Below, piece after piece: positions 1,245-63,950 of a DNA stretch of 64,000 nucleotides; the stretch's first letter is position 1; each line of letters begins with the position of its first letter. The DNA is from Eledone cirrhosa. Taxonomy: Eukaryota. The notes under the pieces are model-generated. The model ran no database searches. It had not been told where the DNA came from and worked only from the letters and a program-made list of their open reading frames with translations. The stretch spans positions 70,246,001 through 70,310,000 of the forward strand of contig OZ024741.1 of the NCBI GenBank assembly GCA_964016885.1, in the 5' to 3' direction. Made by a program: the position numbers and the translations under genes.

Positions 1245-1411
1245 GACAAAGGAATTGTGGTAAGGAACTAGATGGACCATAACGCACCAGAGTACTCAAT
1301 ACTTAGGGTAGTAGAGTGGGAAATAAGAAAAGGTATGACCCCGACGGCAGAGCTCAAGCCGTTTCGACGGCTATTTCTGTTTCGACGGCTATTTCTAGCT
1401 TCGTAAACCAA
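1245..1411 (-). mobile_element. PLE-like family A arm between (TA)n tracts, ending in a 16-nt piece of another family's terminus
   Basis: Shares GGACCATAACGCACCAGAGTACTCAATACTTAGGGTAGTAGAGTGGG with six other loci; the minus strand reads GAAAC-GGC..GCC-GTC (HHR 3' half). 1396-1411 is the reverse complement of 2705-2720. Confidence 0.6.
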
Positions 1412-1450
1412 TATATATATATATATATATATATATATATATATATATAT

Positions 1451-1581
1451 AGGAACAAGTAAGACGCCGACGGCTGAGCTCAAGCCGTTTCGACAGCTAA
1501 TTCCAGAATTGGCCGTCGAAACGGCTTGAGCTTGGCCGTCGAAACGGCTTGAGTTCAGCCGTCGGGGTCTTACTTGTTCCT
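1451..1581. mobile_element. PLE-like family A fold-back remnant
   Basis: AGGAACAAGTAAGAC...GTCTTACTTGTTCCT inverted arms carrying GTCGAAACGGCTTGAG, flanked by (TA)n. Confidence 0.6.
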
Positions 1582-1617
1582 ATATATATATATATGTATA
1601 TAAAGATTTACATTTAT

Positions 1618-2692
1618 GCTTTGGAAAAATTAACTGTCCAACTGAGTTGTCTCCTGATGAGTCTGTTACTCTAGGTTCATCCTTAACAGAAGGATATCTA
1701 AAAATACGGACGAAACCATGGTAGAGATGTAATTACGGTATGTACACGTTTCTTCTAAGTTTAAATTTACACCTAATTATGTATGGTTGACGGTATATTT
1801 AGTCAGTTTCTACATGCTGTTGAAATGTTGGGTAAATACTCTATTGGGGTCACCGCGAAGAGGCCGCTTTCGGTTATTTATCAAATATTTCTTCATAGGA
1901 GCCTTTATTCTTATAGCCTGGTCTAATTGATTTTTTATATGGTTAATAATGCTAATTGGGAGAGGAAATGGTATATATTTTATCTAATAATTCTAAGGAC
2001 ATGATTTATGATATATTGCTCTGATTATTTAATTTATTAATTCTTCATTGAGCCACAACGTGACCGGTTGCCACATATATATCTGTGACTTTATGTATAT
2101 GTAAATCTTTATATTTAATAATCTCTCGTTGGGTTGAGATGCAATTGGGCGATATTGGGCGATATTGGGCGATATTGAGCTGCGCTTTCTAGCAACCAGC
2201 CTACCGGCCGTAAGCAACTAATGACATTCTTTCTAACTTGACCACTGCCACGTCACGATTCTTAGCCATTTTTTAATCTATTTTTGGCGCGATCGCTTTG
2301 GAAAAATTAACTGTCCAACTGAGTTGTCTCCTGATTAGTCTGTTACTCTAGGTTCATCCTTAACAGAAGGATATCTAAAAATACGGACGAAACCATGGTA
2401 GAGATATAATTACGGTATGTACACGTTTCTTCTAAGTTTAAATTTACACCTAATTGTGTATGGTTGATGGTATATTTAGTCAGTTTCTACATGCTGTTGA
2501 AATGTTGGGTAAATACTCTATTGGGGTCACCGCGAAGAGGCCGCTTTCGGTTATTTATCAAATATTTCTTCATAGGAGCCTTTATTCTTATAGCCTGGTC
2601 TAATTGATTTTTTATATGGTTAATTATGCTAATTGGGAGAGGAAATGGTATATATTTTATCTAATAATTCTAAGGACATGATTTATGATATA
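1618..2692 (+). mobile_element. Hammerhead-bearing element with two ~397-bp direct repeats (pLTR-like or partial retrozyme dimer, period ~677 bp)
   Basis: 1618-2015 and 2295-2692 are near-identical, each carries an HHR motif, and the element is bounded by (TA)n. Confidence 0.75.
1649..1728 (+). ncRNA. Type I hammerhead ribozyme
   Basis: Stem I TCTC/GAGA, CTGATGA (1654-1660), stem II GTCTGT...ACGGAC with long insert, GAAAC-CATG-GTA (palindromic stem III ACCATGGT). The second copy at ~2326-2405 has CTGATTA (G8 lost). Confidence 0.8.
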
Positions 2693-2869
2693 TATATATA
2701 TATATTGGTTTACGAAGCTAGCCGAAATGATTCGGTACACCTTCTGTCGTAACTTACTGAATGATATTAAAAGGTTTGTACATTAGAAGGACGAACCTAT
2801 AACACATCAATCAGTAAGAGGAACGACTACGTGTGGGTAATGATATTTGTAAATCATATAAATCTGGAC

Positions 2870-2990
2870 TGTCGACAGTTTCTGTGCCACAGTCTATCAA
2901 CAATAGTTCCAGCTGCAACCACCATTCACAGTAGTTAGGTAATATCTGTAGACATTACATAACTTGGCCTTGCAGCACCTCATCAGTGGA
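2870..2990 (-). ncRNA. Hammerhead-like motif in a TA-bounded insert (~2705-3200)
   Basis: Minus strand: CTGATGA, stem II GTGCTGCA...TGTGGCAC, GAAAC-T-GTC; stem I is weak. Confidence 0.4.
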
Positions 2991-60879: not shown

Positions 60880-61150
60880 TATTTGTACACAAGTATTCCA
60901 ATACGACAAGGCCTAATGAATTCCCCTTGCAGTACGTACAATCTGGACACACCCCAGATACATATTTGTACACAGGTATACAATTTCTGGACACACTCCA
61001 GATACATGTGTACAATTTGTACACAAGTATACAATTTGTGCACAGGTATACAATTTCTGGACACACTCCAGATACATATTTGTGCACAGGTATTCCAATA
61101 CGGCAAGGCCTAATGGATCCCCCTTGCAGTACGTACAACCTGGACACACT
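60880..61150. repeat. Complex minisatellite-like repeat (CTGGACACACTCCAGATACATATTTGTACACAGGTAT)
   Basis: Several degenerate copies plus a duplicated CAAGGCCTAATG..CCCCTTGCAGTACGTACAA block. Confidence 0.6.
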
Positions 61151-62186
61151 CACACACACCTTGGTATTTATTATGCCAATACTATATATCATTTCACACC
61201 TTTTATTATTAAGATTTTTGATGTTCTATTGAGAGAATCGATTTTACTGAAAATATCGAATAATGTACACCATTTTACCAGAAATAAATACTGGTCCACC
61301 CACACACACACACACACATTCTCACACACACACACACATATATACACACACACATACACACGCGTACATTAACATACAAAGAGACATATATACATACACA
61401 CACACACACACACACACACACACACACACACACACACTTCTCCGTATAAGACAAGAGCTGAAACATGTTAAAATATCCCCCACACACTTACAGACACATT
61501 CCTACTGACCATCCTTCTACCACGAATTACTCTGCTACACACACACACACACACACACACAGACACACACACACACACACACACACACACACACACACAC
61601 ACACACACACACACACACACACACACACACACACACACGCACACACTTGTCTTAATAGGCATTTGAACTGTCAACAGGCTGCGGTTCGCACACACATCCC
61701 TGCTGACCATTATCACAACAACGAACCTCTTTATTACTACTACACACACACACACATACACATATTTGTTGTGAAAGACTTATTTCTCAGTGACTTCTTA
61801 ATCAGGCGACACAAACCTACATTTGGCGCAAAATCAATTTTTTACATTCACATGACCTCTACCGACCAATCAAAATTTTTTGACCACAAGAATTTTTGCA
61901 ACACGAATTGGCGCAAAACTTATTTTAATACCGCTGGAGCCACTTTTTTAACATAAAAACAGGTAGAATTCCCAAAACTAATCAGATCAGAGCAAACATC
62001 ACGAACGCTCTATCTCAAAATTATTTTTGAAAAGCATTAGAAATGCGCAACCGGTAAAACTTAAAACCAAAACTGAATACTAACCAATACTATTACTAAT
62101 TCTCACTTATTCCTAATTAAACTATTTTTCACTGTGAACAATTTGTCAGCATTTTCTTTTCCGTTTACCGATATATATATATATAT

Positions 62187-62345
62187 TAGGATTGGTGCTC
62201 TGAAATAGCGATGTATACATGAATGTATGTATAGTAATCTGTTATTTTAATAAATATTTGCTCTAGGGTTCTTATATATTTGATATATATTTATCCTTAT
62301 CGAGCCCTCTTTGGATTTTAGTCTTCAAATTTATTATTATTACTA
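62187..62345. mobile_element. Chimeric two-arm insert: family D end (-) fused to family B end (+)
   Basis: 62187-62236 is the reverse complement of 59918-59968; 62237-62345 is the reverse complement of 42620-42731. Confidence 0.8.
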
Positions 62346-62355
62346 TATATATATA

Positions 62356-62820
62356 TAGAAGTGGTTACACAACAGTTAGTTCACCATACCGAGAACAATT
62401 GTTTCACCTTAGCGGATCTTCAGCTCGGAATGGGCATGGTTTTAGGAACAGGAAGGACGACCGTACGAATGCGCATGCGCAGAAAATCGGTCACTTCCCA
62501 CAGGCAATACTAGACTGCGTGCGAGAGGTGTAAGGGAGATAACTGCGAAAGTCCGAAAAGTTTTTAGGTTGAAAATAAAATTACAAAGAATCAGTCCGGA
62601 GCCTTGTAGTTATGCAATAGGTGTTTGGCGACGTGTGGACAACGTGTGAAAAATTCACTTCTCGTGTTTAGGCAATCACTATTGCGTAATCTCTTTAGAA
62701 TAGTTATTCGTTCGTCAATACATAAGTGAACTAACTGTTGTGTAACCACTTCTACCTAACTCGTCCCTTGGACTGAGTGTTCTACCTCTACGGATATTAC
62801 CTTCCAGTGTTCCACCACTA
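62356..62820. mobile_element. Family E two-arm insert, HHR on - at 62389-62428
   Basis: CCGAG-CTGAAGA-TCCG-CTA-AGGT-GAAAC-AATT-GTT-CTCGG; TAGAAGTGGTTACACAACAGTTAGTTCAC is inverted at ~62726-62754, followed by a tail. Confidence 0.75.
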
Positions 62821-63484
62821 TATAGATAAATATATATATATATATATATATGTTTGAAGAATAATCAGACAAACTTTATCCAATTTTTTCTTCTTAGTCC
62901 GTAGAAATCAACTAGATGAATAATCATTTAAACGGAGCTAAGTTTAAAATGTAACTTTGAATAAATAACAGATAAATGTTATCGATATTCCTTTATGAAG
63001 AACAGTCAGATAAGATTTACCTAGTCTTTCCTCTTAGTCCGTAGAAGTCAACTATATATATTGTATCACAAATCAGCAATTATTTGCTTTTATATATGTA
63101 TATATGCATAAACCTCGTTATATATATGTGTGTATATATACAGCTAATTTGTTGAGTTCTTCGATTTTGTGCGAAGTTCTTTGTTTGAATTCGACCTGCA
63201 AACCACACTTATTAGTCTACGATAGAATTCTTCTTCTTTTTCATTAGAAGCAGAGAGTGTGAATGGCAACAACTACTAGATGTCCTGTCCAAAACACAGC
63301 CACCGTATCTGTTATTAATTAAATGTGTGCACTCTGAACAGCTGATTATAGCTGCGTTAATGCAATCCGGCAGATTCATTGAGTGAGCTAGACATTAGCC
63401 GGAGAATGTTGACTTAATATCAGCGATCTTTGTTATCTTTATACATACATAGATATATATATATATATACATATATATATATAT

Positions 63485-63950
63485 AAGTATGTACACGTAC
63501 ATACATATATGTATACAGACGTACAGTAGTATGTATATATATATACATACATGCACACATATATATATGTACGTATGGATTCACCGAACATTTATTATAA
63601 TGCTCGGTGTTAATACGTTCAACAATCTGGCAGGAAGGTATACGTTGCTGACGATAGCTAATAAGCTTGAAACTAGTACAGCGTTCCTTTGTCAGTGTTG
63701 AACAAACGAGCAACGATGATTGCTGGACACTACGGCTTAATACGGGATGTTTGTTTACAAACACACCGAGCATTATAATAAATGTTCGGTGAATCCATAC
63801 GTACATATATATATGTGTGCATGTATGTATATATATATACATACTACTGTACGTCTGTATACATATATGTATGTACGTGTACATTCTTATATTTAAGTAA
63901 CAGCCGTACTAAGAGTGGGAAATGAAATTTCGTTTCATTTTTTCCGTTTA
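63485..63950. mobile_element. Sister subfamily of the 494-bp retrozyme, two-arm copy
   Basis: Inverted short arm 63485-63610 plus sense arm ~63615-63950; same two termini as 59986-60584. Confidence 0.85.
63642..63684 (+). ncRNA. Minimal type I hammerhead ribozyme
   Basis: ACGTTG-CTGACGA-T-AGCT-AATA-AGCT-T-GAAAC-TA-GTA-CAGCGT. Confidence 0.85.

What the first reader, a model, noticed from the sequence alone, without database searches (positions are those of the whole stretch)
1245..63950. Shared two-arm architecture with a long and a short 3' end, both running into (TA)n
Seen: many inserts are two divergent arms whose 3' ends both run into (TA)n, and one arm carries an extra ~55-80-nt tail. 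The array and both sisters use the same pair of ends: one arm stops just past GAAATTTCGTTT(T)CATTTTTT, the other at TACATACTTA about 63 nt earlier. The pattern repeats in family A (33906, 27164, 54410), B (4339, 42622), F (31585), E (62356), 32013 and the coding PLE at 51260. Established: PLEs often show an inverted, truncated pLTR and a short tail beyond the pLTR. Inference: both sides of a cut in (TA)n prime reverse transcription at two preferred RNA sites and the cDNAs are then joined. Unlike L1 twin priming, the arms overlap in sequence, which implies a multimeric, circular or second template.
Basis: partly seen in the sequence, partly recalled or inferred. Interest (0 to 1): 0.75.

Follow-up and report, generated by a model that had tools for sequence, protein, structure and literature searches.

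The report
One-tailed back-to-back Penelope-type insertions
Many unrelated small jumping elements in this animal genome sit as two back-to-back arms inside TA repeats, nearly always one long-ended and one short-ended; this is the known footprint of Penelope-like retrotransposons, and the strict pairing suggests that both cut DNA ends likely start copying at two marked sites of one RNA.

Summary
The pairing is almost strict: 20 of 20 two-armed 494-nt hammerhead arrays, 12 of 12 resolved copies of the coding element, and 54 long+short against 3 symmetric inserts in 16 families. This layout is the published signature of Penelope-like elements (PLEs): inverted truncated arm, one-sided tail, (TA)n targets, two reverse-transcription start sites (PMC11167929, PMC8557442). 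The coding partner is a Neptune-like PLE whose tail is the start of its ORF. Not found in my literature searches: the strict pairing, arms that each hold sequence the other lacks (two separate copying events), variants shared by both arms, short UA/TA microhomology at the ends, and a covarying bulged hairpin just past the short end in 13 of 35 tail groups, with a second copy past the long end in one window element. This scan reported the same arrays and the twin hairpins before on other DNA of this genome. Verdict: new variant of a known kind.

The parts
35483..37416 (-). 494-nt hammerhead array, long-ended arm (3.9 units, outer end at unit position 338)
37411..40629 (+). 494-nt hammerhead array, short-ended arm (6.5 units, outer end at unit position 274); overlaps the other arm by 6 nt
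59987..60582 (.). older sister of the array, long end left, short end right
63486..63948 (.). older sister of the array, short end left, long end right; hammerhead motif at 63648
51261..51543 (-). coding PLE, long-ended arm; 59-60 nt tail 51261-51319 encodes the ORF start (residues about 8-28)
51544..52170 (+). coding PLE, short-ended arm: end of GIY-YIG ORF (to 51776), 3' UTR/pLTR with hammerhead-like core near 51983
33907..34098 (.). family A, long left (83-nt tail with bulged hairpin), short right
27164..27357 (.). family A, long left, short right
54410..54605 (.). family A, short left (into (TG)n then TA), long right
26400..26523 (.). family A, long left (into (CA)n), short right
4185..4329 (.). 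family A, long left, short right
1245..1410 (-). family A, long end only
1452..1580 (.). family A, exception: short+short hairpin
4340..4535 (.). family B, long left (69-nt tail), short right
42624..42832 (.). family B, long left, short right
60640..60769 (.). family B, exception: short+short hairpin
31588..31951 (.). family F, short left, long right (80-nt tail with bulged hairpin)
62358..62829 (.). family E, short left, long right (tail with hairpin, 1-nt bulge)
32016..32327 (.). insert '32013', long left (66-nt tail, decayed hairpin), short right; TA runs very short
12801..13056 (.). family X1, long left (90-nt tail with bulged hairpin), short right
35236..35444 (.). family X17, short left, long right (104-nt tail with bulged hairpin)
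34806..34981 (.). family X18, short left, long right (47-nt tail, no hairpin motif)

Best explanation
These inserts are head-to-head copies of a coding Penelope-like element and of many non-coding hammerhead elements, nearly always with one long and one short 3' end in (TA)n, and they likely arise when a PLE protein cuts both strands of a TA repeat and extends each cut end from a different internal site of one RNA. Steps: (1) the GIY-YIG domain cuts both strands in (TA)n (shown in vitro for another PLE on AT-rich DNA; inferred here). (2) The two 3'-OH ends prime at two sites separated by the tail (shown in vitro for that PLE; here shown as fixed ends), helped by 2-5 nt of UA/AU pairing (pattern shown, role inferred). 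(3) In most small families each site lies 5-10 nt upstream of a bulged RNA hairpin that would position the protein (hairpin shown, role inferred). (4) Both reverse transcriptases move the same way along the RNA, the one from the long site displacing the other cDNA; on a multimeric or circular RNA this gives multi-unit arms (inferred). (5) The two 5'-truncated cDNAs are joined at their growing ends by microhomology, by a natural hairpin or after a short snap-back, and each templates the other's second strand (inferred).
For: Pairing: 20 of 20 distinct two-armed 494-nt arrays among 38 top loci (14 one-armed, 3 odd or cut, 1 duplicate); 12 of 12 resolved coding copies; 54 long+short, 2 short+short, 1 long+long, 5 with an odd end in 16 families over 1.1 Mb, (up to 16 of the 54 served as references; 38 of 41 still gives p 5e-9 against independent choice). 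Two copying events: short arm reaches further 5' than the tail arm in 7 of 12 coding copies and is the longer arm in 12 of 20 arrays. One template: all 11 aligned units in both arms of the window array carry a base found in none of the other 37 loci; L050 and L067 also share private variants across arms; microsatellite length matches across arms in the 5 youngest two-armed arrays; the partner arm scores above the median of other copies in 25 of 30 inserts. Junction overlap of 2 nt or more in 11 of 20 arrays, null 18%. Short-end microhomology of 2 nt or more in 13 of 18 families, null 23%; both PLE ends share the context AATATCG. Hairpin in 13 of 35 tail groups, 0.12 expected, none upstream; first pair A-U 61, G-C 31, G-U 4, A-C 0 among 96 hits near a TA run, which favours the RNA strand; second copy 7 nt past the long end in window element 52238. 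8 of 51 array arms over 100 nt stop at unit 326-340, the long start site, 1.5 expected (interval chosen after looking). Literature: PMC11167929.
Against: No biochemical or RNA data here. Shared variants could come from one active source locus or later gene conversion; the partner arm was strictly the best match in only 11 of 30 inserts, and the two older arrays tested (L051, L067) do not match in microsatellite length. Coding-PLE junctions mostly lack microhomology: 6 of 12 carry 6-29 extra bases, as do several of the 6 gapped array junctions. Three symmetric inserts exist, and families were defined from asymmetric inserts, so symmetric families are under-counted. The in vitro study found start sites not homologous to the cut DNA, unlike the microhomology seen here. 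The hairpin is absent from the 494-nt family and from the coding PLE, its folding energy is mostly unremarkable, and the twin copy was seen in one family only; both hairpins of that element have an A-C first pair.
Confidence: 0.62

Rival explanations
1. Same double priming, but each subunit of a PLE dimer holds its own RNA molecule and an asymmetric complex makes one use the long and the other the short site.
For: Predicted dimer in PMC11167929; needs no strand displacement; shared variants could reflect one dominant source locus; three symmetric inserts.
Against: Private variants in both arms that no other sampled locus has; strict pairing follows more simply from two sites on one molecule; arms stop in excess at the long start site.
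Confidence: 0.17
2. The tail and the ends come from endonuclease cleavage of a head-to-head DNA intermediate at TA/AT sites, followed by joining to (TA)n (the 'EN-mediated resolution' suggested in PMC8557442).
For: Ends fall at TA/AT steps, which the endonuclease prefers; stated as most likely in PMC8557442.
Against: In vitro RT start sites coincide with the genomic ends in another PLE; the hairpin covaries as RNA, with G-U and no A-C at the first pair near TA runs; it does not explain why one end is always long.
Confidence: 0.08
3. One cDNA folds back and copies itself (self-priming, as proposed in PMC3846280), the copy stopping short of the tail and joining the other target end.
For: Explains pairing, shared variants and palindromic junctions; families A and B join inside the hammerhead's own stem II; snap-back fillers at L172 and L033.
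Against: Impossible where the short arm is longer than the tail arm and lacks the tail: 7 of 12 coding copies, also L078. It may still account for some small hairpins and for the symmetric inserts.
Confidence: 0.09
4. The hairpins are MITEs with terminal inverted repeats in TA sites, or assembly fold-back artefacts.
For: Short palindromic shape and TA flanks of families A and B.
Against: Ends asymmetric and family-fixed, inner junctions variable, hammerhead motifs, same anatomy in an RT/GIY-YIG element; inverted joints present in raw reads of other individuals.
Confidence: 0.02

Closest known systems
Complex insertions of endonuclease-bearing Penelope-like elements (PMC8557442: passages and section 11; PMC3846280: passages; PMC2377424: passages)
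   Same: [quoted passage not shown]
   Different: Published tails are 30-40 bp; here about 47-167 nt and family-specific. The papers call the tail optional; here it is tied to exactly one arm in nearly all two-armed inserts.
PAc (Poseidon, Anolis) two-site internal initiation (PMC11167929: abstract, main text and part of methods; three supplement files searched without hits, supplementary figures not seen)
   Same: Both target strands cut and extended, RT starts at two internal RNA sites, tail equals the sequence between them, a stem-loop at the start, predicted dimer.
   Different: No coupling of the two sites to opposite target strands was reported, no model for the inverted arm, start sites described as not homologous to the target; here coupling, short microhomology and a cross-family bulged hairpin are seen.
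Animal non-LTR retrozymes (PMC7229834: passages; 10.64898/2026.07.22.740005: abstract to discussion, supplements not seen)
   Same: Non-coding tandem units of a few hundred nt with type I hammerheads, proposed to be mobilised by PLEs through circular RNA.
   Different: The parts read do not describe head-to-head arms, tails or fixed ends; here the arrays carry the full PLE insertion footprint. Circular RNA and self-cleavage were not shown here.
L1 twin priming (recalled, no call)
   Same: Both target ends prime reverse transcription and the products are joined by microhomology, giving an inversion.
   Different: L1 uses a poly(A) end plus a random internal site and the segments do not overlap; here two fixed internal sites, overlapping arms, no poly(A).

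Membership tests
Endonuclease-bearing PLE (element at 51261) | C-terminal GIY-YIG endonuclease | tested here: met
   Family copy L160: PF01541, E 2.9e-5, above cut-off; the window fragment alone had no Pfam hit
Endonuclease-bearing PLE (element at 51261) | PLE-type RT upstream in the same ORF | tested here: inconclusive
   RT motifs visible and in order, RVT_1 only E 0.04-0.06, below cut-off; the three copies translated are interrupted; no phylogeny run
Endonuclease-bearing PLE (element at 51261) | pLTR and tail overlapping the ORF start; inverted truncated copy | tested here: met
   Tail translates as ORF start, read-through in L110, L159, L165; 12 of 12 two-armed copies
Endonuclease-bearing PLE (element at 51261) | Hammerhead motif in the pLTR | tested here: inconclusive
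   Core CTGAAGA...GAAA seen by eye near 51983; not passed by my scan's stem filters
Neptune/Nematis clades | CX2-5CxxC linker before the endonuclease, two cysteines between GIY and YIG | tested here: met
   CIDKKCIIC linker and C...C inside the GIY-YIG core in L160, definition from PMC8557442; clade not tested by tree
Endonuclease-bearing PLE | Target-site duplication | not testable with these tools
   Hidden in (TA)n; empty allele not obtained
Animal non-LTR retrozyme (494-nt family) | Tandem units each with a type I hammerhead | tested here: met
   10 motif copies in the window array; Rfam's 150 listed rows showed no hammerhead family, 186 lower rows not shown
Animal non-LTR retrozyme (494-nt family) | Self-cleavage and circular RNA | not testable with these tools
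   No RNA holder listed
Animal non-LTR retrozyme (494-nt family) | No protein coded | tested here: inconclusive
   ORF list covered only 40000 onward; one low-complexity frame of 110 aa overlaps the array end
L1 twin priming | Non-overlapping inverted segments, poly(A) end | tested here: not met
   Arms overlap and end in template sequence
MITE | Symmetric terminal inverted repeats, fixed length | tested here: not met
   Asymmetric ends, variable inner junctions

The most novel reading that the evidence does not exclude
PLE integration is an inherently two-sided reaction: one RNA carries two start signals (in one class, twin bulged hairpins), each target strand is committed to one of them, and no second strand is primed on cDNA at the target as in LINEs. 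Dozens of non-coding hammerhead RNAs, including circles read round by two chasing enzymes, hijack the system by carrying only this signal.
Probability: 0.4. Interest if true: 0.7.

Novelty: new variant of a known kind. Interest (0 to 1): 0.48.

Why it matters
How PLEs, the sister group of telomerase, make their inverted one-tailed insertions is stated as open in PMC8557442 and PMC11167929, and how animal retrozymes integrate is stated as open in 10.64898/2026.07.22.740005. The strict pairing, the named start sites and the hairpin give concrete templates and mutations for the existing in vitro system. It also tells repeat annotators that a very large class of palindromic TA-flanked repeats (19 tails in 400 kb of dispersed sample; order 10^5 per genome by extrapolation) are retroelement products, not MITEs. 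The basic layout and two-site initiation are already published, which caps the score.

Tried and rejected
Rfam scan of the window: listed rows were microsatellite-driven miRNA matches below their cut-offs. Expression: no RNA holder listed; one guessed RNA run laid no contig on the unit; neither is evidence. Read-level test of the two ends with RAD-seq reads failed because the tool skipped the microsatellite next to the short end and restriction sites dominated the loose ends. Empty-allele test at the array's right flank was uninformative, the repeat part being skipped. In one search the rows for the older 494-like reference were microsatellite noise and were dropped (6 long+short rows among thousands of junk rows). 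In one search, 3 of 21 families and many single rows gave no value because of mismatches near the end. In one search one X1 row had no comparator and one (L045) was misaligned but kept in the count. Automated searches for twin hairpins in held data printed nothing; the one case was found by reading the window element. Read-through copies past the long end were not found in held data for families A, B, E, F, X1, and a genome-wide search for them was not carried out, so the twin-hairpin rule stays untested for those families. Hammerhead-cleaved linear monomers as templates were rejected: no arm begins at the cleavage site. General fold-back, MITE and assembly artefact were rejected (see rivals). 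Literature searches; none listed a paper on strict long/short pairing or the bulged hairpin, but subscription papers are not covered.
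Full report
Setting. The window lies at G000:C2:70246001-70310000 of a 3.0-Gb assembly. It is AT-rich and full of (TA)n runs. Earlier notes of this scan call the genome an octopus; I did not test that.

Observation. I read both outer ends of every named insert. 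All twelve named inserts are head-to-head with one long and one short end. Direction comes from the hammerhead motif, on the + strand in the array's right arm and the - strand in its left arm, and from the endonuclease ORF piece of the element at 51261. The array's ends lie 64 nt apart in unit coordinates. Exceptions in the window are two short+short hairpins (1452, 60640) and several one-armed copies. In 864 kb of window plus 80 unselected 10-kb stretches, 64 of 130 TA-anchored inverted-repeat rows have a 50-99 nt one-sided extension, against 5.7% for random positions. Raw reads of three other individuals contain opposite-strand and head-to-tail joints of the 494-nt unit, so the layout is not an assembly product.

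Pairing. Of the 38 best-scoring loci of the 494-nt family (824 candidates), 20 are distinct two-armed inserts with both ends readable, and all 20 are long (unit 334-338) plus short (274-281); 14 are one-armed, 3 odd or cut, 1 a duplicate. For the coding family, 12 of 12 resolved two-armed copies are long+short (one long end lacks a TA flank, one is cut 11 nt early by the locus edge; four also appear). For 16 families in 1.1 Mb the count is 54 long+short, 2 short+short, 1 long+long, 5 with an odd end (junk rows of one reference dropped). The references came from asymmetric inserts, so this count leans towards asymmetry; removing 16 leaves 38 of 41. If each end chose its site independently, half would be symmetric. 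The two ends are therefore coupled.

What the elements are. [quoted passage not shown] Its tail is the start of the ORF, as read-through copies show, just as described for Adineta Penelope in PMC3846280. The 494-nt family is a tandem unit with a minimal type I hammerhead, that is, an animal retrozyme-like element (PMC7229834; bioRxiv 10.64898/2026.07.22.740005). Families A and B are cut inside a hammerhead stem II, which explains their uniform hairpin look; longer family A copies exist.

Two copying events. In 7 of 12 coding copies the short-ended arm reaches further 5' than the tail arm, so each arm holds sequence the other lacks and neither can be a fold-back copy of the other. In the arrays the short-ended arm is the longer in 12 of 20, up to 7395 against 209 nt.

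One template or two. All aligned units in both arms of the window array carry G at unit position 24 where the other 37 loci that cover it have A; L050 and L067 also share private variants across arms. Microsatellite length (132, 134 or 136 nt) agrees across arms in the five youngest two-armed arrays, but not in two older ones. In 25 of 30 coding, X1 and A inserts the partner arm scores above the median of other copies, strictly best in 11. This favours one template molecule but cannot exclude one dominant source locus or gene conversion. No arm starts at the hammerhead cut site, while 8 of 51 arms over 100 nt stop at unit 326-340, the long start site (interval chosen after looking).

Ends and junctions. 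Short ends share 2 nt or more with the TA run in 13 of 18 families (null 23%) and 3 nt or more in 11 (null 12%). In the arrays the short end moves among neighbouring TA/AT steps (274, 277, 280, 281). Both ends of the coding element lie in AATATCG. This differs from the in vitro statement that the start is not homologous to the target. Inner junctions overlap by 2-8 nt in 11 of 20 arrays (null 18%), but 6 of 12 coding junctions carry 6-29 extra bases instead, one a clear snap-back.

A shared signal. Clustering 80 tails gave 35 groups, some spurious. Thirteen carry RCUC, an inner stem-loop of free sequence, a UN bulge and GAGY, 3-15 nt after the short end; 0.12 were expected from shuffles and none lay upstream. 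Without imposing the first pair, 96 hits near a TA run read A-U 61, G-C 31, G-U 4, A-C 0. I had noted the hairpin before the scan's notes showed that it was reported earlier with a second copy (e1-8668526, e1-8674329). I tested that lead on the window's 52238-53390 insert, a partial tandem that reads through the long end: one hairpin begins 5 nt past the short end and a second 7 nt past the long end. That is one family. The 494-nt family and the coding element lack this motif, so at least two signal classes exist; the earlier notes tie the hairpin class to Hydra-clade PLEs, which I did not test.

Mechanism. Most likely a PLE protein, perhaps a dimer (predicted in PMC11167929), cuts both strands of (TA)n and primes from two sites of one RNA; the enzyme from the long site displaces the other cDNA (the PLE ORF has no RNase H domain, recalled); the truncated cDNAs are joined and complete each other. 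Shown here: anatomy, pairing, two events, microhomology pattern, hairpin. Shown elsewhere in vitro: both-strand cutting and two start sites. Inferred: one RNA, displacement, hairpin function, circles.

Comparison and verdict. The inverted arm, one-sided tail, (TA)n targeting and two start sites are in print. Six searches listed nothing on strict pairing or the bulged hairpin; supplementary figures of PMC11167929 and the supplements of the 2026 preprint were not seen and may bear on this. A repeat annotation of Octopus vulgaris lists active Penelope families without this anatomy in the passages read (PMC13282606). The scan has reported the two-armed arrays and twin hairpins on other DNA of this genome; those notes are not independent support. 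New variant of a known kind, interest 0.48.

Noticed in passing
window 52238-53390: Very young insert (arms 100% identical over 359 nt) of a 595-nt unit with a 167-nt tail, twin hairpins and a hammerhead-like motif near 53060-53150 whose core reads U3-A8 instead of C3-G8 (seen by eye).
   Followed up: partly
L078:3570-3672, L129:2140-2258; window 13079-13130: Longer family A copies show a hammerhead-like core with the compensatory U3-A8 pair; family B has a core reading CAGAAGA (U4A-like). Seen by eye, activity untested.
   Followed up: no
L063 (G000:C3:333085200-333095199): The 494-nt array has variant patterns that recur every 5-7 units, pointing to a multimeric template or later block duplication.
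   Followed up: no
L041:3670-3765, L062:1547-2003: Template jumps inside array arms near the tail region (a 32-nt repeat; a skip of about 107 nt).
   Followed up: no
window 35987-36000: One array unit has an oligo(A) run expanded from 7 to about 23 nt next to the long start site.
   Followed up: no
L110:6870-9970: Near-complete copy of the coding PLE with an asparagine/threonine-rich stretch upstream of the RT, recalling the N-rich inserts described for Adineta Penelope (PMC3846280); interrupted by stops and frameshifts.
   Followed up: partly
window 54970-55468, 59598-59968, 34440-34790: A further hammerhead-bearing family of about 330 nt in partial tandems between TA runs, without a clear inverted arm.
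   Followed up: no
tails of hairpin-class families: GAGY is most often followed by RCTY, giving a self-complementary 8-mer that could pair between two RNAs.
   Followed up: no
window 43230-44300: Long tandem array of a CA-rich unit of about 30 nt.
   Followed up: no
L056 and L058: Same array junction on contig C367 and on C17: probably a haplotig duplicate.
   Followed up: partly
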